A stretch of DNA of 64,000 nt from a candidate division WOR-3 bacterium (GCA_016867815.1 VGIR01000004.1:488-64487); one strand, 5' to 3'. Shown: positions 5,611 through 64,000, counted from the stretch's first letter. Translations and numbers: made by a program. The notes: generated from the letters alone by a model not told the origin.

Positions 5611-7080
5611 CTAGTGCTGGAATGCGGACTGGAGGGCGGCGGCGATGATGGGAATCTCATCCTGGCGGAGGGTCCGGAAATCGAGCAGGTATTCGCCCTT
5701 CTCGACCCGGCCGAATACCGGTGGGCGATTGAGGCGCATCCGGCGGGCAAGCTCGTCCACGTGCACGGTCTTTGGCCGAACCGAAACCACGCGTGATTCG
5801 AGGCTCTCGGTGGCGAGCGACCCACCGCCGATTTCGGATAGCGCGGGCTTCACCTGGACTGCGGCCTTGTCCTTGAGCCTGGCCTGCACCTGACTCACAA
5901 GCGTCTCTGCCTCTTCCTGCATCTGCTGGGGAGTCTTGAGCAGGAGCTGGAACAGAGCGTGCTCCTTGACGACTCGCTCTTCGTCGAGGAAGAGCTCCAG
6001 GGTCCGTTCGAGCACGGCGTAGGTCAGCTTGCCGCAGCGCATGGCACGGGTGAGCGGGTGTTTCTTCAAGAGGTCGATGTACTTCTTCTTGCCGACGATG
6101 ATGCCTGCCTGCGACGCGGAAATCAGCTTGTCCCCGGAGAAGCAGATGACATCGGCTCCGGCTTTGACCGACTCCTGCACCAACGGTTCCTTGGGCAGGC
6201 CGTACTTCGAGAGGTCTATGAGCGCGCCGGAACCAAGGTCATCCACCACCAGCACCTTGGCCTCACGCGCCAGCCCGACCAGCTCTTCAAGTCCCACTTC
6301 CTTGGTGAACCCGGTAATCTTGTAGTTGGAAGTGTGGACCCGGAGCAGCAATGCCGTCTCGGACGTGATGGCATTCTTGTAGTCACGCAGGTGGGTACGG
6401 TTGGTTGTGCCTACCTCTACCATCTTGCATCCACTCTGCTGCATCACGTCGGGGATGCGGAATGCTCCGCCGATTTCGATGAGCTGGCCCCGCGAGACAA
6501 TCGCCTCCCTGCCCTTGGCCAGCCCCGAGAGGATGAGCAGCGTCGCGGCGCAGTTGTTGTTGACGACCATCGCCGCCTCGGCCCCGGTCAGCTCGCAGAG
6601 CAGCGGCTCGATGTGTCGATAGCGGCTGCCGCGCCTGCCAGTCTCAAGGTCGATTTCGAGGCTGGAGAAATGCTCGCTCACGTCGGCCAGCGCTTCCTGC
6701 GCGGCCTTGGACAACGGCGCGCGACCCAGCCCGGTATGCAGGATGACGCCGAGTCCGTTGATCGCCCGAGTCAGGGTCGGCTTGCGCTCGCGTTCAAGAC
6801 GCCGCTCTAGTTCGGTCTGGTCGTAGGCAACGCCCTCGCCAGCGTGAATCTTCTCCCGCAGTTCATCCAGGTAGACCCGTATCGTACGCACCGCCATTCG
6901 ACGGTGGACGTGAGACAGAACCGGCTTCAGTTCCTCACTCTCGAGCAGCTTGTCTACCGATGGCAGAGACCGAAAAGTGGCCCCGTGATCTAGTGGTCCA
7001 GTGTTCGAGTGTCCGGTCGGGAGTCCCGCACTTGACCTCTTGACCACTTGAGCACTAGACCGCTGCTGTTTCTTCTTCAC
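5611..7080 (-). CDS. selA: L-seryl-tRNA(Sec) selenium transferase (selenocysteine synthase).
   Basis: Full-length similarity to SelA (..FRSLPSVDKLL.., VVNNNCAATLLIL, VSRGQLIEIGGAFRIPDVM, HTSNY, FSGDKL...). GTG start at 7080 abuts the mcsB stop. The first ~35 codons are encoded by palindromic repeat element E1. Confidence 0.85.
   Translation of the reverse strand: MKKKQQRSSAQVVKRSSAGLPTGHSNTGPLDHGATFRSLPSVDKLLESEELKPVLSHVHRRMAVRTIRVYLDELREKIHAGEGVAYDQTELERRLERERKPTLTRAINGLGVILHTGLGRAPLSKAAQEALADVSEHFSSLEIDLETGRRGSRYRHIEPLLCELTGAEAAMVVNNNCAATLLILSGLAKGREAIVSRGQLIEIGGAFRIPDVMQQSGCKMVEVGTTNRTHLRDYKNAITSETALLLRVHTSNYKITGFTKEVGLEELVGLAREAKVLVVDDLGSGALIDLSKYGLPKEPLVQESVKAGADVICFSGDKLISASQAGIIVGKKKYIDLLKKHPLTRAMRCGKLTYAVLERTLELFLDEERVVKEHALFQLLLKTPQQMQEEAETLVSQVQARLKDKAAVQVKPALSEIGGGSLATESLESRVVSVRPKTVHVDELARRMRLNRPPVFGRVEKGEYLLDFRTLRQDEIPIIAAALQSAFQH
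6988..7062. repeat. Palindromic repeat element E1 (GTCNAGTG-type octamers x4, centre CGGGACTCCCG, inverted octamers x4), in-frame inside the selA 5' coding region.
   Basis: Read from the sequence; the plus and minus strands are near-identical. A homologous element sits in the lolD 5' region. Confidence 0.6.
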
Positions 7081-8120
7081 GGATGCACCAGCGTCTCTCG
7101 GACGAATGTGGCGCGGCGCTCGTCGCGTTCCGCCGCGGTCAGGTTCTCGCCCAGCAGCGCCTGCAGGTTCGCAGGACGGACAAGTATCATCAGCCGCGTC
7201 ACCTGCTCCAGGCTGATCTCGTTGACTATGCCAAGGGTGACTCCGAGCCTGAGGCCGGCAATCAGGTTTATCGCCTCGTCCGAAGAGAGGACGCGCGCGC
7301 CCCGCAACAGGCCAAGCGACCGGAAGACCTTGTCTTCGACCTCGACCCGCAGCTTCTTCATCAGGTACTCACGCGCCTTCCGCTCGTACAGAATCACCTG
7401 CCGACTGATGTCGGCGATCGTCTCGATGATCTCCCACTCGGTCTGGCCGACCGTCTTCTGGTTGGAAATCTGGAAGAAGTTGCCCTTGGTTTCAGTTCCC
7501 TCGCCGTACAGGCCGCGCACCGCGAGGCCGATATGGATGGCCCCGCGCAGCACCTTTTCGATCTCGCGGGTGATGACCAGCGCGGGGAGGTGCACGAGAA
7601 CCGAGGCCCGCATTCCGGTGCCGAGGTTGGTCGGGCACGCGGTCAGGAATCCGAACTCGGGCGAGAAGGCGTACTGAAGCTGGCTCTCCAGCTTCTCATC
7701 AAGAGCCGCCGCCGCAGTGAAGGCCTCGGGGAAATCGAGGCCGGATGCCATCACCTGGAACCGAAGGTGGTCTTCTTCGTTGATCATCAGGCTCGTGGCT
7801 TCATCGTTGCCGACGTAGAACCCGCGCTTTGCCTTGGAGGCGATGAAATCGGGCGAAGCGAGGTGACGCTCGATCAGGTACTGGCACTGCGGGTCGGCAA
7901 GCTGCTCGTTCTGGAGGAACTTGCCGTTCTCCAGGTAGCCGGTGTCGGTAAGCGCCCAGCGTACGACGTCAACGGTACGTTCGTGGTCGCGGGGCTCTGC
8001 CCGGTGGGTGAAGGGTACGTCGGCCAGGTTCCGCGCCAGCCGGACGCGGGTGGAGAGGACTACGTCAGCTTCCGGGCCGGAGGCCGCAAGCCACTTCCCG
8101 ACCGAACCGCCTGGACTCAT
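7077..8120 (-). CDS. mcsB: Protein arginine kinase (ATP:guanido phosphotransferase family).
   Basis: Phosphagen-kinase signature CPTNLGTGMRASV and an McsB-like N-terminus (VVLSTRVRLARNLADVPF). Confidence 0.8.
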   Translation of the reverse strand: MSPGGSVGKWLAASGPEADVVLSTRVRLARNLADVPFTHRAEPRDHERTVDVVRWALTDTGYLENGKFLQNEQLADPQCQYLIERHLASPDFIASKAKRGFYVGNDEATSLMINEEDHLRFQVMASGLDFPEAFTAAAALDEKLESQLQYAFSPEFGFLTACPTNLGTGMRASVLVHLPALVITREIEKVLRGAIHIGLAVRGLYGEGTETKGNFFQISNQKTVGQTEWEIIETIADISRQVILYERKAREYLMKKLRVEVEDKVFRSLGLLRGARVLSSDEAINLIAGLRLGVTLGIVNEISLEQVTRLMILVRPANLQALLGENLTAAERDERRATFVRETLVHP

Positions 8121-8133
8121 AGAAGCGGAGTAT

Positions 8134-8212
8134 CACCACCAAGGCACCAAGACACCAAGTCCGAGAACGGACTTCCTGTCCGGTCTGCTTTGTGCCTTTG
8201 TATCTTTGTGGC
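8134..8212. repeat. Palindromic repeat element E2 (ACCACCAAG GCACCAAG ACACCAAG, a 28-nt spacer, then CTTTGTGC CTTTGTAT CTTTGTGG) in the mcsA-mcsB intergenic region, ~22 nt upstream of the mcsB ATG.
   Basis: Read from the sequence. The arms differ from perfect complements by one systematic position per heptamer. Confidence 0.65.
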
Positions 8213-10809: not shown

Positions 10810-10888
10810 ACCACCAAGACACCAAGACACCAAGGTCGGAATCCGGCCGGCCGGAGAGATCTCTTTGTGCCTTTGTGCCTTTGTGGTG
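10810..10888. repeat. Palindromic repeat element E5 (ACCACCAAG ACACCAAG ACACCAAG, a 27-nt spacer, then CTCTTTGTG CCTTTGTG CCTTTGTGG) between lysS and the LolC/E gene, ~22 nt upstream of the permease ATG.
   Basis: Nearly identical to E2 in its arms. The distal context CTTGGTGGTRAKACTCCG..ATG is shared with mcsB. Confidence 0.65.
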
Positions 10889-10903: not shown

Positions 10904-12451
10904 TCAGGATTCTTTCTGAGGCCGGAGTTGCGGAAAGAGAATCACGTCTCTGATGGTCGGTGAGTTCGTCAGCAGCATGGCAATCCGGTCAATCCCCAGT
11001 CCGAGGCCGCCGGTCGGCGGCATGCCGAACTCGAGCGCGGTGCAGTAGTCCTCGTCCACCGTCGCAAACTCCTCATTCAGAGCCACGCCCTCCTCGAACC
11101 GCTCCCGCTGCTCGGCCGGGTCGTTCAGCTCAGAGAACGCGTTGCCCAGTTCCATGCCGCATACCACCGGCTCGAACCGCTCGACCAGTTCCGGGTTGTC
11201 GCGGTGGCTCTTGGCCAGCGGCGTCGTCACCTTCGGATGGTCCATCACGAAGGTCGGGTCAATGATGTGGTCCTGTATCAGCTCGGAGAAGAGCTTGTCC
11301 AGCAGCTTGGCGCGGGAAATGTCCTCCGTGGTCTGAACGTTGAAGCGCGCCGCGACCTTCCTCAGCATCGGCATGGAGAGCTTCATCGGGTCCGTCTCAA
11401 TCCGCGCTGCCAGCGTGTCCACGAATTTCATCCGCTGCCAGGGTCTGCCGAAATCAACGATGTGGTCGCCGAACGGTAGCTCCGTCTTGCCGCAGACCTC
11501 CATGGCGAGGAACTTGAACAGCTCCTCGACCAGCGCGAGCACGTCATTGTAGTCGGCATAGGCCCAGTAGAGCTCCATCTGGGTGAACTCGGGATTGTGC
11601 GTCCGGTCCAGTCCCTCGTTGCGGAAATCCTTGCCGATTTCGAAGACCTTCTCCAACCCGCCGACGATCAGCCGCTTCAGGTACAGCTCGTCGGAAATCC
11701 GCATGAACATCTTCTGCTCGAGCACGTTGTAGAATGTCTCAAACGGACGGGCTGCGGCACCGCCGTAGATCGGCTGCAGAATCGGCGTCTCGACCTCGGC
11801 AAACCCGCGCTCGGAAAGGAACCGCCGCACGAGCCCGGTGATCTTGGTCCGATTCAGCAGCACCTGCCGCGACTCCTGATTGACAATAAGGTCAACGTAG
11901 CGCTGCCGATAGCGCATTTCGACATCTGTCAGACCGTGGAACTTCTCCGGCAGCGGATGTAGCGACTTTGTGAGGAGAACCAGTTCCTTCACGTTGACCG
12001 TCACCTCCCCGGTCTTGGTGCGGAACATCTCGCCCCGCGCTCCCACGAAGTCGCCTAGGTCGAGCAGACCAAGGTTCGCGAACGCCTGCTCGCCCAGGGT
12101 GTCCTTCCGCAGGTAGAGCTGCAGTCTCCCGGTTTCGTCCTGGATGTGGCCGAACTGGGTCTTCCCGTGCTCCCGCCGCGACATCAGCCTGCCCGCAACG
12201 CTCACTGCGAACAGGGGCGTGGGCAGAGGGGCTGTACCGGATTGCGGCGCTCCTGGCGCCGGAGACTGTCCCTGCCCGCTCAGATCCTCGAACTCCGCTA
12301 TCGCCTTCGCATTCGTGTGGGTCCGTTCCCACTTGTACGCGTAAGGATTGACACCGGCCTCGCGCAACTTCGCGAGTTTGCCGAGCCTGACTTCGCGGTC
12401 ATGGCCGCTGGTCTGAGTCGGTGGTTGTTGCTCCTGTGGGTTGTCGCTCAT
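10904..12451 (-). CDS. lysS: Lysine--tRNA ligase (class II).
   Basis: Class II aaRS motifs throughout (FRNEG, GGLGLGIDR...). About 505 aa with a typical OB-fold N-domain. Confidence 0.9.
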   Translation of the reverse strand: MSDNPQEQQPPTQTSGHDREVRLGKLAKLREAGVNPYAYKWERTHTNAKAIAEFEDLSGQGQSPAPGAPQSGTAPLPTPLFAVSVAGRLMSRREHGKTQFGHIQDETGRLQLYLRKDTLGEQAFANLGLLDLGDFVGARGEMFRTKTGEVTVNVKELVLLTKSLHPLPEKFHGLTDVEMRYRQRYVDLIVNQESRQVLLNRTKITGLVRRFLSERGFAEVETPILQPIYGGAAARPFETFYNVLEQKMFMRISDELYLKRLIVGGLEKVFEIGKDFRNEGLDRTHNPEFTQMELYWAYADYNDVLALVEELFKFLAMEVCGKTELPFGDHIVDFGRPWQRMKFVDTLAARIETDPMKLSMPMLRKVAARFNVQTTEDISRAKLLDKLFSELIQDHIIDPTFVMDHPKVTTPLAKSHRDNPELVERFEPVVCGMELGNAFSELNDPAEQRERFEEGVALNEEFATVDEDYCTALEFGMPPTGGLGLGIDRIAMLLTNSPTIRDVILFPQLRPQKES

Positions 12452-12524
12452 CGGGCAAGACTATATCCGTGTCAGAGGCGAAGTCAAACAGACGAAGAAG
12501 AGATCGACGCCGGGACAGGCACCT

Positions 12525-12552
12525 ACCACCAAGTCACAAAGACACAAAGATG
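12525..12552. repeat. Partial element E6 (CCACCAAG TCACAAAG ACACAAAG) upstream of lysS.
   Basis: Only one arm type is clearly present. Confidence 0.4.
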
Positions 12553-12588
12553 GATCTGGAAGCAGCCGCTACCGATGCACGCGCAAGG

Positions 12589-13407
12589 CTACTTCTTCTT
12601 GTGCCCGCTGGCAACGAGCCAGCTCCGCTCAACAACTCCCCAAACCGGATTGTCCGCATCGTGCTGCAGAAGCTCTCCATAGACACGCCAAGGCCGACTC
12701 CGACTCCAGAACTGCAGGCTCTGAACTATTCGGCGTTCGGCAGGCTGTGCACGCAGTCCAATCTCGCCCCCCGACTCAGTCCGGACCTGGTAGACAATGC
12801 CGCGCGGTCTGACGACGCGCCCTCCGACGGTGTCCCCTTCATCGAGCAGACGCTGGACCGATGCGGCGTCGGCGACGCCCGATATCTCGCGTTGCCACGC
12901 CGCGTAGTCCTCAAGCTTCCTGGGCTGGAACATAGTATCTACTTCCTCCGGCTTCAGCGGAAACCTGGGGAGGCACTGCTCGCCGCCAAACAGAGCGCCG
13001 ACCAAACCGGAGGCGCTCACCACGGTCTCCGGAGCGACATTGTCGCGTGGTCCGGAGAACAGAACCTGACGAACAACGAGCCAGTTGTCCGTACGAACGT
13101 ACCACACAAAGTCGTCCCTGGATGTCCCGTTTCGACGATCCTGGGCTTCGGCCCGCAGCACGTAGCAGTCCTGTTGTTCGACCGTCTCGACGCCGGCTAC
13201 ACAATATCGTTTGTAGCTGCAGCCGGAGTCAACCGCAGGATCGACTCTTGCCGGCTCCCAGGTCTTGACCACCCACCAGTCGCCCACTCGCCACCTGGGA
13301 GCAAAGTTCATCTTCCCGCCCGCGGTGAACTGCCGCGCGCATGCCGCGACAGCCAACGCGGTCAGGGCGACTCTCGTCCAACGCACGACACCAGTGTATA
13401 ACGACAC
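12589..13407 (-). CDS. Hypothetical secreted lipoprotein.
   Basis: Signal peptide with a lipobox (LAVAAC). No recognisable domain. Confidence 0.5.
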   Translation of the reverse strand: MSLYTGVVRWTRVALTALAVAACARQFTAGGKMNFAPRWRVGDWWVVKTWEPARVDPAVDSGCSYKRYCVAGVETVEQQDCYVLRAEAQDRRNGTSRDDFVWYVRTDNWLVVRQVLFSGPRDNVAPETVVSASGLVGALFGGEQCLPRFPLKPEEVDTMFQPRKLEDYAAWQREISGVADAASVQRLLDEGDTVGGRVVRPRGIVYQVRTESGGEIGLRAQPAERRIVQSLQFWSRSRPWRVYGELLQHDADNPVWGVVERSWLVASGHKKK

Positions 13408-13508
13408 AGACTGCTGTCAAACCACTTGTCGAGGGACAATCCCTAGCCGCCCGAGGAGGCTGGCCGCGAAGTTAGGCGCATGGCGAAGTCGGGATGATGA
13501 GACATGTT

Positions 13509-13760
13509 CGTATCACTATGCCGAGGGCGTTTTCGGTCCTATGTGCCTGAGGATTAGGGCGTTAGGCGGCATCGAGCCGAAATGACCCCCCCCGCCCCGG
13601 GGACTGCTCGGGGGATAGCCAGCCATGTCGTTTGTATCGCTGTATCGGACATCGTTCGGCAGACAGTCTCGGACACGGTCTGGGAGAGTCCTTGGTCCGT
13701 TGTCCCGGAGGCAGTGCGGCAAGCTGCGTGCATCGTTGCTTCGTGCGTCGTTTGGGGAAA
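13509..13760 (+). ncRNA. Conserved noncoding element, copy 1 (candidate sRNA, 5' leader or cis-regulatory element; not identified in any known family).
   Basis: About 230 nt that align at ~70% identity with 30006-30236 (shared blocks CCTATGTG..TGAGG..TTAGGC..CGAAATGACCCC, a CATCGTT/TCGNTGTA repeat block, CAGACAGTC, GAGAGTCCTTGGTCC). Lies in a 680-bp ORF-free divergent intergenic region. Strand not established. Confidence 0.3.
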
Positions 13761-13969
13761 AGCAGAGATAGTATGCAGCAGGCAGTAGACAGGACTGCCG
13801 GGCACGCAGACGGGCACGTCGTTCTGCACGTTGCTTCCGCCGCAATCCGGAACGCAGCCTGCGAGGCGGTTCGCGGGGTTGCGCCCGGAGTCATGTCCTT
13901 TTCCGTGACCCGAGTCCCACGATGAGAGGTCTTCCCGAATCCAGCCTGCGGCGTGAGTCCATCACCGGC

Positions 13970-13997
13970 TTGACATGGCGTACCGGGGCGATAGCAT
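13970..13997 (+). promoter_or_regulatory. Putative sigma70-type promoter (TTGACA-N16-TAGCAT) for the CARDB cargo gene.
   Basis: Read directly from the sequence, ~125 nt upstream of the ATG at 14121. Strong SD AAGGAGGT 7 nt before the ATG. Confidence 0.35.
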
Positions 13998-14120
13998 GAC
14001 CCGTTCACGGGCTGCGGTCCTTTGCAGCCGTGAGCGGCATACGCCGGCAGGCCGCGTGGCAAGGCTGTCTGCGGTGGCGACCGGCGGGTGCGCAACGCCA
14101 GTCAGCACGAAGGAGGTCGG

Positions 14121-16432: not shown

Positions 16433-16951
16433 ATGGGTCGCATCCTCTGTATAGACTACGGCGAGCGGCATACGGGCGTTGCGGTCTCTGACCCGACGCG
16501 AACCATCGCGCAAGCTTTGCCGACCATCCATCACTCGAGCAAACGCGAGCTGCTGGAAGCGCTTAGGCGGCTCATTGCCGAGCAGGAGGTGACTGAGGTC
16601 GTCATCGGCCTGCCGGTGGCTCAATCCGGCAAGCCGAGCCGTCGGTCCGAGCAGGTGCGGAGTTTCGCCGGGCAACTGAGGAAGGCAACCGGCCTGTCTG
16701 TGGCGACGTTCGATGAACGCTTCTCGACCGCCCGAGCGACCGAGGTGCTGGAGGAGATGTCGGGCGGCCGCGACCTCGCGCCCGGCAAGCGCGCAGCCAC
16801 CGGCCGGAACCGGAAGCGCCGCGAAGCCGTGGACCGGATAGCCGCGACCATCATCCTTGAAGACTACCTGGCTGAGATGGGGGACCGCACGAAGAACCCA
16901 GAATCCAGAGTCCAGAATCCAGAATCCAGAAGTACCGGAGCCGGGGCGTGA
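16433..16951 (+). CDS. ruvX: Holliday-junction resolvase-like protein YqgF/RuvX.
   Basis: MGRILCIDYGERHTGVAVSD... RNase-H-like YqgF motif. The C-terminal tail KNPESRVQNPESRST is encoded by an 11-bp tandem repeat (CAGAATCCAGA x3). Confidence 0.75.
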   Translation: MGRILCIDYGERHTGVAVSDPTRTIAQALPTIHHSSKRELLEALRRLIAEQEVTEVVIGLPVAQSGKPSRRSEQVRSFAGQLRKATGLSVATFDERFSTARATEVLEEMSGGRDLAPGKRAATGRNRKRREAVDRIAATIILEDYLAEMGDRTKNPESRVQNPESRSTGAGA

Positions 16952-27531: not shown

Positions 27532-29889
27532 ATGAACCGAACCGCAGTTCTCGCCGTCCTTTGCCTGCTCGTTGCGTACGCCGGCGCCCAGTTCCGGGAA
27601 ACCACTGTGCTGCTGCCCGATACGCTCGGTGGCGTCGGATACCCGGGTGCGATGGTCTACAACAGCGGCGCCAACCGCATCTACGCCGGCGGGACCGCGA
27701 GCGACGCGGTAGCCGTCATCGACGCGGCGACCGGCACGCGTGTCGCCCGGATCTCCACCCCACCCGGCGAGGGAATCTATGCGCTATGCTACAATCCGGC
27801 CAACAACAAGCTCTATGCCTCAACCAGCGTCAGCTCCGCCAAGCTGCTGGTCATCGACGGCGCGACGCACGCAGTGCTGGCAACGGTGCCTGTAGGCGGC
27901 TACGTCAACGCAATTCTAGTCAACCCGGCGACCGACCGAGTCTACTGCGTGAACTCGGGCGTGGACTCGGTTACAGTCATCGACGGAACCACCAACGGCG
28001 TCGTCACGACGGTGAAGGTAGGTGACTATCCGTACGCGCTCTGCGTCAACGCGACCAACAACAAGATCTACGTCGCAGGGAACTCCGACAGCTCAGTCAC
28101 CGTCATCGACGGCGCGACCAACAACGTCGTCGCCACTGTCCGGGTCGGCCGCGGCCCGATCGCGCTCTGCTGGAACTCGGGCGAGAATAAGGCGTACAGC
28201 GCCAACAGCACCGATGGCAGCGTCACCGTCATCGATGGCGCAACCAACAACGTCGTCGCCACTGTGGCGACCGGGACTCTAACCCGCGACGTCTGCTACA
28301 ACCCGACCAACAGCAAGGTATACGCTGCGGCAAATGGCACCAGCAAGCTCGTGGTCATAAACGGAGTGACCAACGCCATCGACACGTTCTTCACGGTCGG
28401 CCAAGCCTACGCGGTCGGATACAATCCAACCAGCAACAAGGCCTATTGCACCTGGCAGTACAGCCGTCGGGTCACCATCATTGACGGCACGGCCGATACC
28501 GTGCTCGGCACGGCCGACGTCGGCTACACGCCGGGGCCGGTCATCCACGCCGCGACGGGCAACCGGGTTTTCGTCTGCAACCGCGACGACAACAACCTGA
28601 GCATCGTGGATGGCGTGTCCGATTCGACCGTCGCGACCGCGTATGTCGGCTTCTACCCGTACGGCGCCTGCTATGATTCGCGGCAGAACCGGCTCTACGT
28701 GCCCAACGCGCATGGGCCGACGGTCGCGGTCGTGGACTGCGCGACGAACACCGTCGACGCCGAGGTGGCGGTCGGTCAGGATGTGAGTTCGGCCTGCTTC
28801 GACAGCGTGGACAACAAGATCTTCTGCGCCGTCTCCGGTTCGCAGCGGGTTGCGGTCATTAACGCGGCGACCGGTGCAGTAGTCGACTCGGTGCCGGTCG
28901 GCGGCAGGCCCTTTGGAATCCTGTACAATCAGGCGTCGGGCAAGGTCTACTGCTCCGACATCTATACCGACTCGCTGTTCGTCATCAACGCGGCGACCAA
29001 CGCGGTTCTGGCGCGAATGAGCCCCGGCAACAACCCTGTTGCACTTTGCCTCAGCACTGCCGGTAACAAGGTCTACGTCGCCACCCGTGACGACGACCAG
29101 GTCAGGGTTATCGATGGCGTCACGAATCTCGTTCTTGACTCGATACCGGTCGGCGACGGCCCCTACTTCCTCTGCTACAACGGCAATGACGACAAGGTGT
29201 ACGTCGCGAACTACGGCGACAGCACCGTATCGGTCATCGATTGCGCGGGCGACTCCGTCGTTGCCACCGTCAAGGTCGGCCGCTGGCCGTTCCGGTTGGC
29301 ATACAACCCCGACCACAACAAGGTCTACGTCGTCACCGGCTCTGGGAGCAGTGTCGCTGTGCTCGACGGCGCCGGCGACAGCATCATCACCAAGGTCAGC
29401 GTCGGCCAGAGTCCGCTAAGCGTCATCTACAGTGAACGCACCGGGCTTGCCTACGTCGGCGTCAGTGCGAGGAACATCGTGCTCATAGACGGTGCCACCA
29501 ACGAAGTGAGGAAGAACGTACCTTCCGGCGTCCGGGTCGAGGTCTTCGCCCTGAACCCGTCCGGCGGGCGGGTCTACGCCATCAGCCCGTACGGCTCGGA
29601 CATCACAGTTGTCGTTGACTCTCTGACCGGCATCGCGGAAGCGATGAGTGATGAACGAGCAACGATGAAAGCCGGTCCCACCATCGTCCGCGGCGTCTTC
29701 CTACTGGATGGGGACTGTCCCCGCACAGGGACCATCCCCAAAGCCGTCCTACTGGATGCATGCGGCCGCAGGGCAATTGATCTCAAGCCCGGCGCGAATG
29801 ACGTGCGTCGCCTCGCGCCCGGGGTATACTTCGTCCGGCGCCTGGCCGGCGACTACCGGGCTACCGAGAAGGTGGTCTTGCAGAAGTAG
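27532..29889 (+). CDS. YVTN-family beta-propeller repeat protein (~16 repeats) with a T9SS C-terminal sorting domain.
   Basis: Canonical 40-aa YVTN repeats (..NKIYVAN.GS.SVSVID..TN.VVATV.VG..P.GIA). Signal peptide. C-terminus GVYFVRRLAGDYRATEKVVLQK. Confidence 0.85.
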   Translation: MNRTAVLAVLCLLVAYAGAQFRETTVLLPDTLGGVGYPGAMVYNSGANRIYAGGTASDAVAVIDAATGTRVARISTPPGEGIYALCYNPANNKLYASTSVSSAKLLVIDGATHAVLATVPVGGYVNAILVNPATDRVYCVNSGVDSVTVIDGTTNGVVTTVKVGDYPYALCVNATNNKIYVAGNSDSSVTVIDGATNNVVATVRVGRGPIALCWNSGENKAYSANSTDGSVTVIDGATNNVVATVATGTLTRDVCYNPTNSKVYAAANGTSKLVVINGVTNAIDTFFTVGQAYAVGYNPTSNKAYCTWQYSRRVTIIDGTADTVLGTADVGYTPGPVIHAATGNRVFVCNRDDNNLSIVDGVSDSTVATAYVGFYPYGACYDSRQNRLYVPNAHGPTVAVVDCATNTVDAEVAVGQDVSSACFDSVDNKIFCAVSGSQRVAVINAATGAVVDSVPVGGRPFGILYNQASGKVYCSDIYTDSLFVINAATNAVLARMSPGNNPVALCLSTAGNKVYVATRDDDQVRVIDGVTNLVLDSIPVGDGPYFLCYNGNDDKVYVANYGDSTVSVIDCAGDSVVATVKVGRWPFRLAYNPDHNKVYVVTGSGSSVAVLDGAGDSIITKVSVGQSPLSVIYSERTGLAYVGVSARNIVLIDGATNEVRKNVPSGVRVEVFALNPSGGRVYAISPYGSDITVVVDSLTGIAEAMSDERATMKAGPTIVRGVFLLDGDCPRTGTIPKAVLLDACGRRAIDLKPGANDVRRLAPGVYFVRRLAGDYRATEKVVLQK

Positions 29890-29918
29890 ACGGCAGACAG
29901 TAGACAGCATACAGGGCA

Positions 29919-29940: not shown

Positions 29941-30005
29941 TGCGTCCTTCGATCTACTCGCCGTGACGATGTCCTAGGCTCGCTGCCGAGCGCGATTCTA
30001 CGACG

Positions 30006-30236
30006 CTGTAGAATAGCGCGGCAGCGGGCTTTCGGGCCTATGTGTTTGAGGCTCGAGGCCTTAGGCTTGAAGCTGACGAAATGACCCCTGTACCTGAGGG
30101 AATACCCCCTGCATCGTTCACATCGTTGTATCGTACATCGTTCCTCAGACAGTCGCAAACGTAGTCCCGGAAAGTCCTTCGTCCCTGGTCTCCAGAGCAG
30201 TCTGACCGGGAGTTCGAGGGCTTGCGTGCCGAACAG
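30006..30236 (+). ncRNA. Conserved noncoding element, copy 2 (homologous to 13509-13760).
   Basis: See copy 1. Sits in a 1.06-kb ORF-free gap and is followed by a perfect 9-10-bp hairpin at ~30276-30305. Confidence 0.3.
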
Positions 30237-30432
30237 CAGGGGATGCAGTTTGCCGGTCTGCAGTCCGGGTTCCTCTCCACTGAGTCCGGGCGTTTGCGGC
30301 CCGGACTGCCGCTGAGACAGCAGTCCAGATTGCGTGCGGGTCAGTCTCCAGACTTGCCTGCCGGGCTATGCGCGGAGGCAATGCAAACTGCAGAATGCAG
30401 ACATCAAAGTGCAGAATGGCGGACCCGAGGAT

Positions 30433-30455
30433 CACCACCAAGGCACCAAGGCACT
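30433..30455. repeat. Partial element E8 (CACCACCAAG GCACCAAG GCAC) in the 1-kb intergenic gap, followed by a 9-bp tandem repeat (GAATGACGA x3, ~30465-30500).
   Basis: Read from the sequence. Confidence 0.4.
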
Positions 30456-30794
30456 ACGATGGAGGAATGACGAAGTCCGAATGACGAATGACGATTGAAA
30501 CTCGAAGCCCGAGGGATGAAACCGCCGATGCACGCCGATGGACGCAAATAGGCGGACCTGGGTAGTTCAGAATCTAGAAACCAGAGGCAACGCGGCCAAA
30601 GGCCGCGAGTTTCCAAGCGAGCCTCTCAAGCAGCTCTTGACCGAGCTTTCGCACGTGCTGCCGAGGGATCTTCCCTTCGACCTTTTGGCACAGCTTTGAG
30701 CTGCGATTCCCCAGTTCCCATTTGGCAGTTTGCGGTGGAGGAGCGGACCCAAGGCTGAGTAGTCTGCGGGTTCCGTGGATAGCAGGCCGCGGGG

Positions 30795-30822
30795 TTGACA
30801 TCCTCGGTCACTGGACTAGAAT
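30795..30822 (+). promoter_or_regulatory. Putative sigma70-type promoter (TTGACA-N16-TAGAAT) for the TPR gene.
   Basis: Read from the sequence. GGAGGAG SD before the ATG at 30950. Confidence 0.4.
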
Positions 30823-45205: not shown

Positions 45206-46149
45206 TCCATCGGTTCAGGCCGCTGACTCACCGGCCGCAAACCTCCAGCACCAAGCTCGGCGTAGACGCGATAGCGGGCGCCACGGCCAGCTGCCGGGTT
45301 GTCCTCAAAGCAATTGAACTGAGCTTCAAGAACCGCATCTCCGACTGAGCCGCCGCTCTCCTCAACACGCGAAGCCATTTGACTAGCCGGGCGCAGGACC
45401 GAATACTGCACTTAGAACACAACTTGGGGCGGTACTCCGGTGGTGACGTGAGTGACGGTGAGCCCGGCAGTGCCTCGGCCAATCCTTGGGACTGACCGGT
45501 GAATCGCACCGCAGGTAGCCTCGGCTGCAAGACCCGGGGCAAACCGGGCAGCGAACTCCACCGTAACGAGGAGGCAAACCTCGGGGCTGACCCGACCGGC
45601 CAGCTCCCCGGCTAAAAGGGAAGTTCACCAGCCGGTTGGTCCGGACGTTGCCCGGGAGATTGTGTGCGGGACGCCGGCCGGGTTTACCCGGAGGATTGCG
45701 CTGGAAGCAACGAGGGAATTAACCTCGCGGGCAATCGGTGGGGCAATCCCCGGGGCAGTCCCCCGGGCGGGGGTATCATTTCCCGGCCCCAAGCCCAAAG
45801 CCATAGGCCGCAAACAGATACGCCAGAGAGCCGTCTCCGCAGGATGATAAGAACCTGTCTCATCCGCGCCAAGGTCAGTTCCCGCTCGCCGCACTGCGAT
45901 AGCATGGCCACCGTCTTCCAATTCCCTGCAGAGCGCCGGCCCCTGCTGGATAGTCTAGAGAGGGATCTACTGCTCCAGCGGTGTTCAATTCAAGTCGGCG
46001 CTCCCGTTCACAATGGACATCGCGAGCCTGCTTCCACAAGGTCAATAGCGTGTCAGCTCGGCGACAGGCTGTCGCTTCACGGTGACTGATTCCACTCTGT
46101 CCATCTGCTAGGTCCCGCAATATCGGCCCTTGGCCGACTGGCATGCGGC

Positions 46150-48780: not shown

Positions 48781-49596
48781 TCAACTGGGCGTGGACGGGA
48801 CGTCCGCTCGGCGCGGGCCAGGGCGGCGGACCCGCATCCGGAGGAAGTAGACCACCAGCGCCGCGGCGAGGAAGGCGCCGCCGTAGAGCAGGCTGCCGAG
48901 CAAGGCCTGGCCGACGCCGTGGTGGGTGAACGCCGCGGTCATGCTCAACTGCGACGGGTAGAAGGCGGGCAGCCGGCGGATGATGACCTGGTTTTGCGCG
49001 CCCGCGTAGTAGACCGGGTTCTGGAGCCAGGCCGCGTCGATGTTGGCCAAGAGGGCGATGAAGAGCACTCCTTCGAGCTCGCGGCGGAAGATGGCGCCGA
49101 TGAGGAGGCCGTAGCAGCCGTAGACGAACCCGGCCAGGGCAAAGCCGGCGATGACGAGGACGAGCCGTTCGGGCTCGAAGAAGAGCGGCAGGAGCTCGGC
49201 AACGAAGGCGCCGATGATGATGGTAACAATGAGGAGCACGGCGAGCTTGGCCGCGATGAGCTCAAGCGGGCGATAGCCGCAGAGGACGAGCCGACGGTTG
49301 GTCTCGACGTTCTTCTGGACAAGGCCGAGCGCGAGGAACGCGGTGAGCAGGCCGACCGCGGCGGTACCGATGAAGATGAGGTTGGTGCTGCGCTCGCTGA
49401 CCTGAACGAACGGGTTGCCCGGGATGGAGGCGAGCTTGAACGCGATCTTGGTGGTCCTGGTGGTCAGGACGACCAGTGTGTCGAAGAGCGCCGGGATGAT
49501 GAAGAGCATCAAGAGGGCGACGCGGTTGCGGGCGAGCTCCTGTCCGGTAAGCGCGAGCGCGGTACCGAAGCGGCGGGCAGAGGAGCCGCGCTTCAT
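48781..49596 (-). CDS. ABC-2 type transporter permease.
   Basis: Six predicted TM helices. Start overlaps the ATPase stop (4 nt). Confidence 0.75.
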   Translation of the reverse strand: MKRGSSARRFGTALALTGQELARNRVALLMLFIIPALFDTLVVLTTRTTKIAFKLASIPGNPFVQVSERSTNLIFIGTAAVGLLTAFLALGLVQKNVETNRRLVLCGYRPLELIAAKLAVLLIVTIIIGAFVAELLPLFFEPERLVLVIAGFALAGFVYGCYGLLIGAIFRRELEGVLFIALLANIDAAWLQNPVYYAGAQNQVIIRRLPAFYPSQLSMTAAFTHHGVGQALLGSLLYGGAFLAAALVVYFLRMRVRRPGPRRADVPSTPS

Positions 49597-50231
49597 CTCG
49601 TGGCCTCCGGTTCGAGTCGACCGGCGACGATACGGTAGAGCGAGTCGAACCGGGCGCGGTCCTGGACGAAGTGCGACACCACGAGCACGGCCCGCTTTCT
49701 CTCCCGCAGTTCGGCGGTGAGTTCCCAGAAGTGGAGGTAGGTCTCCCAGTCGAAGCCGGAGTAGGGCTCGTCGAGGACGAGGATGTCGGGGTCATGTAGG
49801 TAGGCGATGGCGAGGTTCAGTTTCTGGCGGGTGCCGCCGCTCAAGTGGTTGACCATGGTGTCGGCGTAGCGCTCGAACTTGAGCTGGCCGAGCAAGACCT
49901 GCATGCGCTTTGGCCAGTCGGCGCGGCCGTAGGCAGCGGCGAAGTAGCGGAAGTTCTCGCGCACGGTGAGCGTTTCGAAGACGAGCATCTCCTGCGGGCA
50001 ATGGCCGACGCGGCCGGACATGACGACCGTGCCGGCGTCGGGCCTGAGGCGGCCGACAATGATGTTGAGGAGGGTGCTCTTGCCCGAGCCGTTCTCGCCG
50101 GTGACGCCGGCTATTTCGCCGGGAGCGAGGCTGAGGCTCGCGTCCAAAAGAACGCGGTTGCGTCCGAACGACTTGGCCACGTTCCGGGCGAAGAGGAGCG
50201 GCCGCGTCGCCGGGTCAGTCGAAGAGGGCAT
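49593..50231 (-). CDS. ABC transporter ATP-binding protein.
   Basis: Walker A GENGSGKST, signature LSGGTRQK, Walker B ILVLDEP. Confidence 0.85.
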   Translation of the reverse strand: MPSSTDPATRPLLFARNVAKSFGRNRVLLDASLSLAPGEIAGVTGENGSGKSTLLNIIVGRLRPDAGTVVMSGRVGHCPQEMLVFETLTVRENFRYFAAAYGRADWPKRMQVLLGQLKFERYADTMVNHLSGGTRQKLNLAIAYLHDPDILVLDEPYSGFDWETYLHFWELTAELRERKRAVLVVSHFVQDRARFDSLYRIVAGRLEPEATR

Positions 50232-51114
50232 ATTCGTCTAACAGCGGCACTTCGGTGCGGAGCGTGGTCCCTGAGTGTTCGATGCGGGCTACGGCGCGGC
50301 CGGTGAACTTGACCCCGCGCGGGTTGCGGGTGATGCGGCGCAGAAGCGGCCCGGAGATAAACTCGGACTCGACCGCGGCGCTTTCGTGGACGACATCGAG
50401 TTCCACGCCGAGGCCGGGCCCGGTTGCGTTCAGGCGATAGCGGGAGGGGCACGCGATGCCGAGTTCCGGCGAAGGCCGCCACTCGGACGGCTCGACCTTA
50501 ACATCAGTCGCGACGATCACGCGCTCGCCGATCCGGAGGACAAGTCGCGGCCAGGCGCCGGCGGGACCGGATGCAACGGTGTAGGTCAGATCGCAGTAGG
50601 AATCATGGGCGCGGCCCCAGAAGAGCGTGCGGACAGGGACGGACGGCGGGAGTACGGTCGAGCGGAGATAGTCGTCGTAGCCCCGCACGTTCGAGGCGAC
50701 AATCGTCCTGCCCCGGAGTTGAACCTCACCCTGGACCATGGCGCCGAGCATTACCGGTTGCCAGAGCACAGTGCCGCGGCGCGCGGCAATCGCGAGGCCG
50801 GGGTCGGTCAGCGGCCGGGCCGTGTACTCAAGCCGGACTGAGGCGTCGGGCAGGTTGACGGCGACGGATGCGGCGGCCGGGCTGAACGTGAGCCGGCCGG
50901 CGGGGAAGTCGATGGTGGGAGTAGCGCCGCCGCTGACCTCTGCCGGCAGGCGGCCGGACCACTTCACCGGCTCATCGGTCCCGGCGCGGCGGAGGTGGAG
51001 CGCGAGTTCGGATGTGCGGGTGCCGAGGAATGCGACCTGGGCAAAGTAGCCGAAGAAGTAGTCGCCGGCTTCGGTCAGGAAGTCGAAGTACCACTTCTCC
51101 AACTGGTAGAGCAT
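50215..51114 (-). CDS. Hypothetical protein (~300 aa, soluble beta-rich; family unassigned, possibly a lipocalin/CrtC-like fold). Start at the internal MLYQLEKWYFDF.
   Basis: ATGA overlap with the upstream radical-SAM gene's stop. 17-nt overlap with the downstream ABC ATPase start. Confidence 0.5.
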   Translation of the reverse strand: MLYQLEKWYFDFLTEAGDYFFGYFAQVAFLGTRTSELALHLRRAGTDEPVKWSGRLPAEVSGGATPTIDFPAGRLTFSPAAASVAVNLPDASVRLEYTARPLTDPGLAIAARRGTVLWQPVMLGAMVQGEVQLRGRTIVASNVRGYDDYLRSTVLPPSVPVRTLFWGRAHDSYCDLTYTVASGPAGAWPRLVLRIGERVIVATDVKVEPSEWRPSPELGIACPSRYRLNATGPGLGVELDVVHESAAVESEFISGPLLRRITRNPRGVKFTGRAVARIEHSGTTLRTEVPLLDEYALFD

Positions 51115-52283
51115 CAGAAGAACGAGGGGGCCCGGTCGGTCAGTTCGCTTCCCCGGTAAGGGCCGGGATGCGGGCCGAGACACCGGCTGTCGCGGCGCGC
51201 GTAGGTGCCGTAGAGTGCCATGTTGCCGGCGCGGCAGCCGCCGGCGCAGGCCGACTTGTACGCGCAGGGCTCGCACTCTTCAGGCGTGCTCTTGAACTCG
51301 ACGAGGGCCGGGTTGGAGAAGCGACCGTGGTAGATGGTCCAGATGTCTTGCTCGGCAATGTTGCCGAGCGGGATGTCAACGATGAACGGGCAGGGCTGGA
51401 CCGATCCGTCGACCTTCACGGTCAGGACGAAGTTGCCGCCGGAGCAGGCGTTGCCGGTCAGCTCGTAGAAGCGGCGGACGAAGCGGGCGTGGTCCGGGTT
51501 CTCTTCGAGCAGTGCCCAGTGCTTGACGTCGGCCCAGGTTCGGGCCGGCACCTGGAGCGGGTCGTCTTTCATCTGCGGTGTGTATTGGTAGAAGATGGCG
51601 TGGGCGTCGAGCGCGCCACGGGCAAAGCGGTCGATCTGGCGGCAGTGCGCGGCGTTCAGGCTGTGGACCGCGCTGAAGGTGTAGACCCGGATGCCGGCGG
51701 CGCGCAGGTTGCGGATGCCCGCGACGGTGCGCGCATGGGAGCCAGGGCTGCCGGTGAACTCGTCGTGGGTCGCCGGGTCGTGGGAGATGAGTGAAACGAT
51801 GCCGGCGTCGAGCCCGGCCGCAGCGAGCTCGCGGCAGAGCGCAGGTTCGGCGGTCGTGCCGTTGGTATAGAGCGTCACGAACGGCGAGCGGGCCCGATGC
51901 TTGGCCGCGCGCACGATTTCCGCGATGCCGGGCATGAGCAGCGGCTCGCCGCCGAGCAGTTCGACCCTGACCCCGCACCCGCTGATGTCGTCGAGCAGGC
52001 GGTCTACCTGGTCGCGAGGCAGCTCCTTCTTCCCGGCCGGCACGTAGCACATGCGGCAGGAGAGGTTGCAGTAGTTGTTCAGTTCGACCTTGAGCGAGTA
52101 GAGGTAGGCGCCGACCAGTCGCCGGGCGGAGCGGGCGTAGAGCTGGGCAGCGGGCGGTGTCGTGGGCAGGCTGCCGAAGAGGTCGAGCAGGCGGAACTGG
52201 ACCCGGGTGATGGTGCGGTTCTTCTGCCGGCACCAGCGGTCGAGCGGCGCGTTCGTCGTGATGGGGCGGCCGTAGTCGAGCAT
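51114..52283 (-). CDS. Radical SAM enzyme with a C-terminal SPASM domain.
   Basis: CNLSCRMCY (CxxxCxxC). C-terminal CEPCAYKSACAGGCRAGN...C cluster typical of SPASM/twitch auxiliary Fe-S domains. Start at the internal MLDYGRP, 2 nt after the upstream stop. Confidence 0.8.
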   Translation of the reverse strand: MLDYGRPITTNAPLDRWCRQKNRTITRVQFRLLDLFGSLPTTPPAAQLYARSARRLVGAYLYSLKVELNNYCNLSCRMCYVPAGKKELPRDQVDRLLDDISGCGVRVELLGGEPLLMPGIAEIVRAAKHRARSPFVTLYTNGTTAEPALCRELAAAGLDAGIVSLISHDPATHDEFTGSPGSHARTVAGIRNLRAAGIRVYTFSAVHSLNAAHCRQIDRFARGALDAHAIFYQYTPQMKDDPLQVPARTWADVKHWALLEENPDHARFVRRFYELTGNACSGGNFVLTVKVDGSVQPCPFIVDIPLGNIAEQDIWTIYHGRFSNPALVEFKSTPEECEPCAYKSACAGGCRAGNMALYGTYARRDSRCLGPHPGPYRGSELTDRAPSFF

Positions 52284-52285
52284 GT

Positions 52286-63988: not shown

Positions 63989-64000
63989 GAGCCAACGGGC

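What the first reader, a model, noticed from the sequence alone, without database searches (positions are those of the whole stretch)
13408..14120. Conserved ~230-nt noncoding element (copy 1) in a 680-bp divergent intergenic region: candidate sRNA or leader
Region 13509-13760 aligns at ~70% identity over ~230 nt with 30006-30236. Shared blocks include CCTATGTG..TGAGG..TTAGGC..CGAAATGACCCC, a run of CATCGTT/TCGNTGTA direct repeats with ~10-nt spacing, CAGACAGTC and GAGAGTCCTTGGTCC. Both copies have the same orientation on the plus strand and begin with a -10-like box (TATCAC/TAGAAT). Both lie upstream of plus-strand genes (a T9SS cargo gene and a TPR protein gene). No ORF is conserved between the copies; conservation is patchy, as expected for an RNA or protein-binding element. 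I could not match it to any RNA family I know (not RNase P, tmRNA, 6S or SRP).
Basis: seen in the sequence. Interest (0 to 1): 0.62.

Follow-up and report, generated by a model that had tools for sequence, protein, structure and literature searches.

The report
Lineage-specific noncoding repeat, probably an RNA
A bacterium of candidate division WOR-3 from Lake Tanganyika carries a few copies of a conserved, non-protein-coding element of 250-440 bases that most likely makes a stand-alone regulatory RNA rather than a leader for the neighbouring genes; it matches no catalogued family, is known from only six sequences, and has no expression data.

Summary
The global alignment scores +32, against -49 +/- 7 for shuffles.

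There is a third copy on the minus strand (45742-45865), and three further distinct homologues in other metagenome/MAG contigs. That makes six distinct sequences. Nothing was found in Rfam, plasmids, phages, viral contigs or 5.8 billion predicted proteins.

The element is not a 5' leader:
- Both downstream genes in the window have their own strong sigma-70 promoters, lying between element and gene.
- Four of six copies face a convergent gene.

Conservation is modular:
- core: 89% identity
- UCGUU word array: 81%
- middle: 39%

Consensus folding is clearly better on the element strand than on its reverse complement. The word UCGUU occurs 22 times on that strand and never on the other.

Best reading (about 0.45): a small family of independently transcribed regulatory RNAs built from short repeated words.

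Main rival (about 0.27): a mosaic intergenic DNA repeat of the BIME/BOX kind.

No promoter, terminator or transcript is shown.

The parts
13393..13420 (-). Sigma-70-type promoter (TTGACA-16-TACACT) of the divergent gene 12589-13407(-). It lies outside the element and marks the left edge of the free intergenic space.
13498..13515 (+). Copy 1, hairpin P1 (UGAGAC / GUAUCA with one G.A mismatch, loop AUGUUC).
   Evidence: pairing is kept across copies, with 2 compensatory pairs between the UGAGAC..GUAUCA type and the AUUCUAC..GUAGAAU type
13527..13589 (+). Copy 1, conserved core: CCTATGTG, heptamer-like words (CTGAGGA TTAGGGC GTTAGGC), then CGAAATGACCCC. The 13-bp P2 helix of the copy-2 type is mostly broken here (4-5 pairs). 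An alternative UUUCGG/CCGAAA helix is possible.
   Evidence: pattern match 13540-13585; the alternative helix was read by eye from the sequence
13595..13613 (+). Copy 1, variable G/C hairpin (CCCCG-GGGACTGCT-CGGGG). Absent or different in other copies; the 13-nt indel relative to copy 2 lies here.
13625..13715 (+). Copy 1, word arrays: four (A/G)TCG(T/C/G)T words 8-9 nt apart (13627-13656), CAGACAGTC (13660-13668), and GTCY words (13684-13706). blastn similarity to copy 2 ends at 13715.
13716..13969 (+). Copy 1, non-conserved tail with further UCGUU words (13733, 13748, 13819) and a 15-nt tandem repeat (13723-13752). No terminator-like site.
13970..13997 (+). Own sigma-70-type promoter (TTGACA-16-TAGCAT) of the T9SS-cargo-like gene (ATG at 14121, Shine-Dalgarno AAGGAGG at 14110-14116).
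29995..30014 (+). Copy 2, hairpin P1 (AUUCUACG-ACGC-UGUAGAAU).
30027..30088 (+). Copy 2, core: P2 helix GGCUUUCGGGCCUA / UAGGCUUGAAGCU (30027-30074) enclosing UUGAGGC-type heptamers, then CGAAAUGACCCC (30077-30088).
30113..30154 (+). Copy 2, AUCGU x4 array and CAGACAGUC.
30261..30361 (+). Copy 2, 3' domain of four consecutive hairpins. Shared with L003, L004 and L001; absent from copies 1 and 3.
29992..30428 (+). Copy 2, full extent of similarity to its closest homologues (437 nt vs L004, 375 nt vs L003).
30795..30822 (+). Own sigma-70-type promoter (TTGACA-16-TAGAAT, 11 of 12) of the TPR gene (ATG at 30950).
45742..45865 (-). Copy 3 (new). P1 (45844-45863), a diverged core (45776-45820, ATG replaced by ATC, 1-nt deletion) and a G/C hairpin. 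It lies antisense between two plus-strand genes, in a 1037-nt intergenic region.

Best explanation
The region holds one member of a small, lineage-specific family of non-coding elements in candidate division WOR-3. The elements most likely function as independently transcribed small-to-medium RNAs (about 250-450 nt), read from the strand on which the element is defined.

The common part has three pieces:
- a 5' hairpin P1, conserved in structure but not in sequence;
- a highly conserved core made of UUGAGGC-like heptamers, which in most copies folds into a long helix P2;
- an invariant single-stranded CGAAAUGAC.

The core is followed by a variable G/C hairpin and then by arrays of short single-stranded words (UCGUU/AUCGU, AGUCC/GUCCC), whose number differs between copies. 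The copy-2 type adds a 3' domain of four hairpins.

Inferred mechanism (not shown): the structured 5' module stabilises or identifies the RNA. The repeated words offer several equivalent binding sites for one partner, either an RNA-binding protein (sponge-like titration) or complementary mRNA segments.

Shown:
- the element is non-coding;
- conservation is modular;
- hairpins and word bias are strand-specific;
- the element is independent of its neighbouring genes.

Inferred: transcription, the partner, and any regulatory role.
For: (1) Real, non-chance family.
- A 24-specified-base core pattern hits exactly three times in the window and 0 times in 100 shuffles.
- It also hits 1 GTDB genome contig and 5 metagenome contigs, which collapse to 3 distinct sequences.

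(2) Not coding.
- The frame after the conserved ATG differs between copies: the ATG-to-CAGACAGTC distance is 78 and 66 nt in some copies, 65 and 65 in others.
- No Pfam hit for any intergenic ORF.
- A six-frame translation finds nothing among 5.8 billion proteins.

(3) Independent of neighbours.
- The flanking genes have their own promoters.
- Orientation relative to neighbours is inconsistent, and 4 of 6 copies have a convergent gene downstream.

(4) Modular conservation among four homologues: core 0.89, AUCGU array 0.81, 3' domain 0.70, middle 0.39, P1 0.57. P1 stays 84% paired, with GC/UA and AU/CG exchanges at two pairs.

(5) Structure tests.
- 5' domain: 86.6% of cells paired, against 35-51% when partners are slid. 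Covariation score 0.209 against 0.148 shuffled (2 of 500 shuffles reach it).
- 3' domain: 88.6% paired, against 28-48% slid.

(6) Strand specificity.
- Consensus folding energy, forward vs reverse complement: -17.5 vs -7.9, -36.2 vs -23.0 and -29.3 vs -21.5 kcal/mol.
- 58 G.U cells against 9 A.C cells.
- TCGTT occurs 22 times (2.3 expected), in all six copies, and 0 times on the other strand.

(7) Low copy number and no terminal inverted repeats.
Against: - No promoter is shared by the copies. Only copy 3 has a 9-of-12 sigma-70 match, and its -10 is the P1 arm.
- No intrinsic terminator follows the element.
- Single-sequence folding is not unusual for the composition: z = -1.0 for copy 2 and -1.9 for copy 1.
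- P2 is invariant in four copies, so it is uninformative there, and it is largely broken in copy 1 and partly in copy 3.
- There are only six distinct sequences. The two P1 exchanges may reflect a single event separating two subtypes.
- The structures were derived from these same sequences, which inflates the paired fractions.
- No expression data are available.
- It is not established whether L003 and L004 are other species or paralogues in the same genome.
Confidence: 0.45

Rival explanations
1. A mosaic intergenic DNA repeat of the BIME/BOX/ERIC kind. It would be assembled from short tandem word arrays of the sort that fill this genome's intergenic regions, copied to a few sites by recombination or an unknown mobility mechanism. 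It would have no RNA function of its own, or only incidental effects on neighbouring transcripts.
For: - Intergenic regions of the window are full of 7-8-nt tandem arrays: CACCAAGA, CTTTGTGC, GAATGAC, AATGCAG, AGAATCC, GCAGACA.
- The element itself is largely made of such words.
- Modules vary in number between copies. L001 has duplicated AUCGU and GUCCC blocks, plus a degenerate tandem half-copy at L001:3047-3139.
- Assemblies break next to the elements. Four Logan contigs start at window 30517, and the L002, L003 and L004 elements sit at contig ends.
- No promoter or terminator was found.
- The element is absent from relatives whose LysRS is 83-90% identical.
Against: - Copy number is low: three in 64 kb, and six distinct sequences across all collections scanned.
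- There are no terminal inverted repeats or target duplications.
- Word and folding asymmetry is strongly strand-specific, which a pure DNA repeat does not predict.
- Conservation is very uneven: 0.89 in the core against 0.39 in the middle. Neutral decay would be even.
Confidence: 0.27
2. A decayed segmental duplication or pseudogene remnant with no function.
For: - Identity between the window copies is only 60-75%.
- Copy 3 has lost the ATG and carries an indel in the core.
- No ortholog exists at the syntenic place in relatives.
Against: - Homologues exist in unrelated genomic contexts in other contigs. One is in a separate MAG (L001), and an identical copy occurs in two further metagenomes.
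- The core is 89-98% conserved among four copies while the flanks are unalignable.
- P1 base pairing is kept despite 57% sequence identity.
Confidence: 0.1
3. It encodes one or two very small proteins.
- A 14-codon ORF runs from the ATG in CCTATGTG to the TGA in GAAATGA (MCLRLEALGLKLTK).
- Its stop overlaps, in an ATGA arrangement, the start of a second, Pro-rich ORF (MTPxPxG...).
For: - The two most conserved blocks are exactly the start and stop of the 14-codon ORF, which is intact and of equal length in 5 of 6 copies (reading).
- 4 of 6 variable sites among the four close copies are third-codon positions and synonymous.
- The ATGA overlap is a common translational-coupling arrangement (established knowledge).
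Against: - By my own binomial estimate, the third-position excess has p of about 0.1. The same sites are also neutral in the P2 helix (C-G to U-G).
- There is no Shine-Dalgarno sequence, although neighbouring genes have strong ones.
- Copy 3 lacks the ATG.
- The C-terminal half in copy 1 is unrelated (GGIEPK vs GLKLTK).
- The second ORF varies from 27 to more than 230 codons and changes frame relative to the conserved words.
- There are no protein homologues.
Confidence: 0.07
4. A cis-acting 5' leader or riboswitch controlling the downstream plus-strand genes.
For: Copies 1 and 2 lie upstream of co-oriented genes.
Against: - Both genes have strong promoters of their own between the element and the start codon.
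- The element lies 360-520 nt or more from those promoters.
- Copy 3, L001, L003 and L004 have no co-oriented downstream gene.
- The neighbouring genes share no function.
Confidence: 0.04

Closest known systems
Families of paralogous bacterial sRNAs, and multi-site sponge RNAs such as CsrB/RsmY/RsmZ (comparison from general knowledge)
   Same: - Several diverged copies per genome, in unrelated intergenic sites.
- A non-coding, structured module plus a variable number of short repeated single-stranded words.
- The number of words differs between copies.
   Different: - The repeated word here is UCGUU/AUCGU or GUCC, not the GGA of CsrA-binding RNAs.
- No partner protein is known.
- No promoter, terminator or transcript is shown.
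- No Rfam family matches.
Mosaic extragenic repeats: E. coli BIME/REP, pneumococcal BOX, enterobacterial ERIC (from general knowledge)
   Same: - Strictly intergenic.
- Modular, with a variable number of internal sub-units.
- Contain imperfect palindromes.
- Either orientation relative to genes.
- Cause assembly breaks.
   Different: - Those families have tens to hundreds of copies per genome. Here there are three in 64 kb and six distinct sequences in all collections.
- Strand asymmetry is strong and G.U-dependent helices are present.
- There is no conserved terminal palindrome.
Intergenic heptamer direct repeats: TAACTGA repeats of Beggiatoaceae, Cyanobacteria and Bacteroidetes (PMC4679880), and cyanobacterial STRR heptamers (general knowledge)
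   Same: - 7-8-nt words repeated in tandem, 3-6 times, in intergenic regions.
[quoted passage not shown]
   Different: - The words differ and there are many kinds of them in one genome.
- They are not placed just upstream of start codons.
- Here several diverged arrays are fixed together in one conserved 250-440-nt unit, with hairpins.
Integron attC sites
   Same: The core contains GTTAGGC, which fits the attC core-site consensus GTTRRRY, inside an imperfect hairpin.
   Different: - No inverse core site RYYYAAC.
- No integrase gene.
- No cassette array.
- Copies lie 16 kb apart among housekeeping genes and in both orientations.

Membership tests
Any Rfam 15 RNA family | Covariance-model score at or above the family's gathering threshold | tested here: not met
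   There were no hits over the whole window. Only chance-level hits (E 0.17-6, far below gathering score) appear in the three intergenic regions.
cis-regulatory 5' leader / riboswitch | Always upstream of, and co-oriented with, a gene, as part of its transcript | tested here: not met
   The downstream gene is convergent for copy 3, L001, L003 and L004. In copies 1 and 2 the gene's own promoter lies between element and gene.
Independently transcribed sRNA gene | Own promoter upstream of the conserved part | tested here: inconclusive
   Only copy 3 has a sigma-70-like match (9 of 12), and it overlaps P1. By eye, the six upstream regions share no motif. Promoters for alternative sigma factors were not modelled.
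Independently transcribed sRNA gene | Defined 3' end (intrinsic terminator) | tested here: not met
   The scan finds no co-oriented terminator-like site downstream of any window copy; its hits lie inside the core or on the opposite strand. In copy 2 a GC hairpin with a weak U tract at 30590-30614 was read by eye.
Independently transcribed sRNA gene | Conserved secondary structure supported by covariation, on one strand | tested here: met
   The forward strand folds clearly better than the reverse complement. Support is modest: six sequences and few independent events.
Independently transcribed sRNA gene | A discrete transcript | not testable with these tools
   No expression data are accessible.
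MITE / non-autonomous transposon | Terminal inverted repeats and target-site duplication at the similarity boundaries | tested here: not met
   No inverted repeat frames the element in any of the three regions. Flanks of copy 2, L003 and L004 show no duplication.
MITE / non-autonomous transposon | Presence/absence polymorphism between close strains | tested here: inconclusive
   All 19 same-species contig stretches retrieved from other assemblies carry the elements. All but one are 100% identical to the window, and the exception differs at 2 bases. The test therefore has no power.
BIME/BOX/ERIC-type mosaic repeat | Modular build with a variable number of sub-units, extragenic, in either orientation | tested here: met
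BIME/BOX/ERIC-type mosaic repeat | Tens to hundreds of copies per genome | tested here: inconclusive
   There are three copies in 64 kb. The strict core pattern gives only 1 hit in GTDB genomes and 5 in metagenomes. Diverged copies would be missed, and the whole genome was not available.
Heptamer direct repeats (TAACTGA / STRR type) | Perfect or near-perfect tandem 7-nt units in intergenic DNA | tested here: met
   This holds for the genome in general (TRF). Inside the element the arrays are diverged (UUGAGGC x4, AUCGU x4, period 7-9).
Heptamer direct repeats (TAACTGA / STRR type) | Position within a few nucleotides upstream of start codons (PMC4679880) | tested here: not met
   The element's arrays lie hundreds of nt from any start codon.
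Integron attC | Inverse core RYYYAAC paired with core GTTRRRY; an integrase; a cassette array | tested here: not met
   Only GTTAGGC is present. No tyrosine recombinase was found among the genes scanned.
Small-protein gene | An ORF conserved in frame and length, with a translation signal | tested here: inconclusive
   The 14-codon ORF is intact in 5 of 6 copies, but it has no Shine-Dalgarno sequence, it is broken in copy 3, and the codon-position test is weak.
CsrB/RsmZ-type sponge | Many GGA motifs in hairpin loops | not tested
   GGA placement in loops was not analysed. The enriched strand-specific words are UCGUU, AUCGU, AGUCC and GUCCC.

The most novel reading that the evidence does not exclude
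A previously undescribed class of modular regulatory RNA in candidate division WOR-3. It would combine a conserved 5' structured module with expandable arrays of short words (UCGUU, GUCC) that arose from the heptamer tandem repeats typical of this lineage's intergenic DNA. It would act as a multivalent decoy for an unknown RNA-binding protein. If so, this would be a route by which simple tandem repeats are turned into functional RNA.
Probability: 0.2. Interest if true: 0.6.

Novelty: new member of a known kind. Interest (0 to 1): 0.4.

Why it matters
WOR-3 is an uncultured phylum, and I know of no described non-coding RNA beyond the universal ones.

If the element is a transcribed regulator, it would be a first lineage-specific RNA family there. 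It would also be an example of an RNA built from short tandem word arrays, and it would account for the three longest intergenic regions of this window.

If it is only a mosaic DNA repeat, it is mainly of practical interest, as a cause of assembly breaks. It would also add to the poorly understood heptamer-repeat phenomenon known from Cyanobacteria and Beggiatoaceae.

Either way the distribution is narrow, so the wider impact is modest.

Tried and rejected
- Rfam at gathering and at permissive thresholds: nothing.
- Orthologous copies in relatives. I fetched about 100 kb around LysRS and PTPS-related homologues (76-86% coding nucleotide identity). Synteny breaks exactly at the element-bearing intergenic regions, and neither nhmmer nor the covariance model R1 finds a copy.
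- Presence/absence or SNP analysis in the same species: all contigs are 100% identical, so it was uninformative.
- Six-frame chimeric protein query, meant to fish out spurious ORF calls over other copies: no hit.
- Viral contigs, plasmids, phages: no match. A looser 14-base pattern gave only chance hits.
- Pfam on all intergenic ORFs: nothing.
- Reverse-strand ORF. It is open in L001 and long in copy 2, L003 and L004, but broken in copies 1 and 3: rejected.
- ECF-type or sigma-54-type promoter around P1. By-eye spacing does not fit consistently: rejected as unsupported.
- Tetranucleotide comparison to decide whether L003 and L004 come from the same genome as the window. All WOR-3 loci correlate at 0.85-0.93, so it is not decisive.
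- One look-up of encoding contigs failed on a frame error. One found no record because the start codon differs from the gene caller's.

Full report
**Setting**

The window has 64.5% G+C. Its lysyl-tRNA synthetase (10904-12451, minus strand) has homologues named candidate division WOR-3, with the closest non-self relatives at 90% identity.

Contig stretches retrieved from 19 JGI and Logan (SRA-run) assemblies, including Ga0194110, Ga0194111 and Ga0194125, are identical to the window; one differs at 2 bases. I recognise those three Ga-series identifiers as Lake Tanganyika metagenomes; no tool output names the site.

The finding lies between a gene on the minus strand (12589-13407, signal-peptide-like N-terminus, no Pfam hit) and a 740-aa CARDB/FlgD_ig protein that starts at 14121.

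Yes, but it is weaker than stated.
- blastn of 13408-14120 against the window gives two collinear matches to the second region: 75% over 89 nt (E 9e-10) and 73% over 59 nt (E 9e-4).
Its score is +32, against -49 +/- 7 for shuffles.

The same search revealed a third copy on the minus strand (45742-45864, E 4e-8). It lies in a 1037-nt intergenic region between two plus-strand genes.

A pattern of 24 specified bases spanning the core hits exactly these three places and none in 100 shuffles. nhmmer and a covariance model find no further copy in the window. The three copies occupy the three longest intergenic regions of the window.

**Homologues elsewhere**

The core pattern found one contig among 185,579 GTDB species genomes: L001, a MAG labelled 'uncultured bacterium'. 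It also found five metagenome contigs. By sequence these are three distinct elements:
- L001 = L005 = L006
- L002 = L004
- L003

The flanking genes are unrelated to those in the window. Tetranucleotide composition puts all of them in the same WOR-3 neighbourhood.

Copy 2 aligns with L004 over 437 nt (75%) and with L003 over 375 nt (81%).

Nothing similar exists in plasmids, phages or viral contigs, or in Rfam.

**Not coding**

The ORF that starts at the invariant ATG of GAAATGAC is 68, 27, 31, 87, 27 and more than 230 codons long in the six elements. It reads the shared words in different frames: the ATG-to-CAGACAGTC distance is 78 and 66 nt in two copies, 65 and 65 in two others.

No frame on either strand is open in all copies. 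No intergenic ORF hits Pfam. A chimeric six-frame translation finds nothing among 5.8 billion predicted proteins.

One oddity remains. A 14-codon ORF, MCLRLEALGLKLTK, runs exactly from the ATG in CCTATGTG to the TGA in GAAATGA, and is intact in five of six copies. Three things argue against it:
- It has no Shine-Dalgarno sequence.
- Its C-terminal half is unrelated in copy 1, and it is broken in copy 3.
- The excess of third-position changes is weak (p about 0.1, my estimate) and is equally explained by G.U-neutral changes in a helix.

**Not a leader**

Consensus scans place strong promoters outside the element:
- TTGACA-16-TACACT at 13420-13393, for the minus-strand gene.
- TTGACA-16-TAGCAT at 13970-13997, for the T9SS-cargo gene.
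- TTGACA-16-TAGAAT at 30795-30822, for the TPR gene.

The element thus sits between or upstream of the real promoters.

In copy 3, L001, L003 and L004 the next gene downstream is convergent. In copy 1, copy 3, L001 and L004 the upstream neighbour is divergent. Neighbouring gene functions have nothing in common.

**Anatomy**

(i) P1 is an 8-bp hairpin at the 5' edge. It comes in two sequence types that align position for position:
- UGAGAC...GUAUCA in copy 1, copy 3 and L001.
- AUUCUAC...GUAGAAU in copy 2, L003 and L004.

Two pairs are exchanged compensatorily (G-C/U-A and A-U/C-G), and L004 has G.U wobbles. Sequence identity is only 0.57, yet 84% of cells pair. As a -10 box they fail in three copies (TGTAAT, TGGGAT, TATCAC).

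(ii) The core is about 70 nt with 0.89 mean pairwise identity among four homologues. It consists of UUGAGGC-like heptamers. In the copy-2 type it forms a 13-bp helix P2 that needs three or four G.U pairs. P2 is largely broken in copy 1 (4-5 pairs) and partly in copy 3. It is followed by the invariant CGAAAUGAC.

(iii) A variable G/C hairpin follows. This is where the indel between copies 1 and 2 lies.

(iv) Next come word arrays: four AUCGU/UCGUU words 8-9 nt apart (identity 0.81), then CAGACAGUC and GUCC words. L001 and L004 carry extra blocks of the same words.

(v) A poorly conserved middle follows (0.39). In the copy-2 type there is then a 3' domain of four hairpins (0.70; 88.6% paired, against 28-48% with slid partners).

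L001 also has a degenerate tandem half-copy. It has a perfect P1 palindrome followed by a different heptamer array (CTACGGC). This suggests that the heptamer part evolves by slippage.

**RNA or DNA?**

Three results favour a function read from one strand.
- RNAalifold energies are much better for the element strand than for its reverse complement: -17.5 vs -7.9 for the six-sequence 5' domain, -36.2 vs -23.0 for the four-sequence 5' half, and -29.3 vs -21.5 for the 3' domain.
- G.U cells outnumber A.C cells 58 to 9. This count is biased, because the structure was predicted on this strand.
- Downstream of the core, TCGTT occurs 22 times against 2.3 expected, in all six elements including their non-alignable parts, and never as AACGA. 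ATCGT, AGTCC, CAGTC and GTCCC are enriched five- to eight-fold.

The uneven conservation (0.89 vs 0.39) argues against neutral decay of a dead duplicate.

Several points count against a confident RNA call:
- Single-sequence folding z-scores are ordinary (-1.0 and -1.9).
- No shared promoter or terminator was found.
- Covariation rests on few sequences and perhaps on single events.
- No expression data could be consulted.

**The genomic background matters**

Tandem Repeats Finder lists many 7-8-nt arrays in the window's intergenic DNA. Some are inverted pairs of arrays that form hairpins between genes (8137-8210, 10812-10885). Assemblies tend to break beside the elements.

This resembles the heptamer repeats of cyanobacteria and the TAACTGA repeats of Beggiatoaceae, which were suggested to bind a post-transcriptional regulator (PMC4679880).

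It keeps alive the rival reading, in which the element is a mosaic intergenic repeat assembled from such arrays. Against that rival stand the low copy number, the absence of terminal inverted repeats and the strand asymmetry.

**Verdict**

| Reading | Confidence |
|---|---|
| Small lineage-specific family of independently acting non-coding RNAs, with a structured 5' module and multivalent word arrays | about 0.45 |
| Mosaic DNA repeat | about 0.27 |
| Dead duplication | about 0.10 |
| Micro-ORF | about 0.07 |
| Leader | about 0.04 |

The element is not a member of any catalogued family. It is best filed as a new candidate member of a known kind (bacterial sRNA or intergenic repeat). Interest is moderate, because the distribution is narrow and function is unproven.

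Noticed in passing
window 55385-64000 (-): A giant ORF of more than 2867 aa runs off the window. It is made of at least 21 tandem 312-nt (104-aa) repeats that are 60-84% identical to each other.
   Followed up: no
window 8137-8210, 10812-10885; single arrays at 12527-12550 and 30436-30454: Inverted pairs of 8-nt tandem arrays (CACCAAGA x3 facing CTTTGTGC x3) form long imperfect hairpins between genes. They appear to be a genome-specific intergenic palindrome built from short words, possibly terminators.
   Followed up: partly
window 16893-16931, 29880-29914, 30380-30418, 30465-30498: Further heptamer tandem arrays: AGAATCC x5.6, GCAGACA x5 (overlapping the stop of the beta-propeller gene), AATGCAG x5.6, and GAATGAC x4.9.
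   Followed up: partly
window about 30517 and 13736; ends of L002, L003, L004: Independent assemblies break at the same points next to the elements. Four Logan contigs (one of them recurring in 5 samples) start at 30517, and one starts at 13736. Two JGI contigs both end near window coordinate 71,700, which may mark another repeat.
   Followed up: partly
L001 3047-3139: A degenerate tandem half-copy of the element sits 160 nt upstream of the main copy. It has a perfect 20-nt palindrome ATGATGCGAATTCGTATCAT, followed by a CTACGGC-type heptamer array and a terminator-like hairpin.
   Followed up: partly
window 13542-13586, 30041-30085: A 14-codon ORF (MCLRLEALGLKLTK in copy 2, MCLRIRALGGIEPK in copy 1). 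Its TGA overlaps the next ATG, in an ATGA arrangement.
   Followed up: yes
window 30538-30699 (+): Gene callers in public assemblies call a 53-aa ORF here, in the non-conserved tail of the copy-2 intergenic region. It has no Pfam match.
   Followed up: partly
window 5611-7080 (-), 7077-8120 (-): Selenocysteine synthase SelA sits next to an McsB-type ATP:guanido phosphotransferase, with a UVR-domain partner nearby. This arrangement is conserved in related WOR-3 contigs.
   Followed up: no
window 48781-55097 (-): A cluster containing two radical-SAM proteins (one with a SPASM domain), an ABC ATPase, two proteins without Pfam domains and a PEMT-acyltransferase fusion. It may be a peptide-modification or lipid-modification locus.
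   Followed up: no
window 12452-14120 compared with L013, L016, L020: In relatives with 83-90% identical LysRS, gene order is conserved up to LysRS and breaks at the element-bearing intergenic region. The relatives carry toxin-antitoxin pairs there instead.
   Followed up: partly
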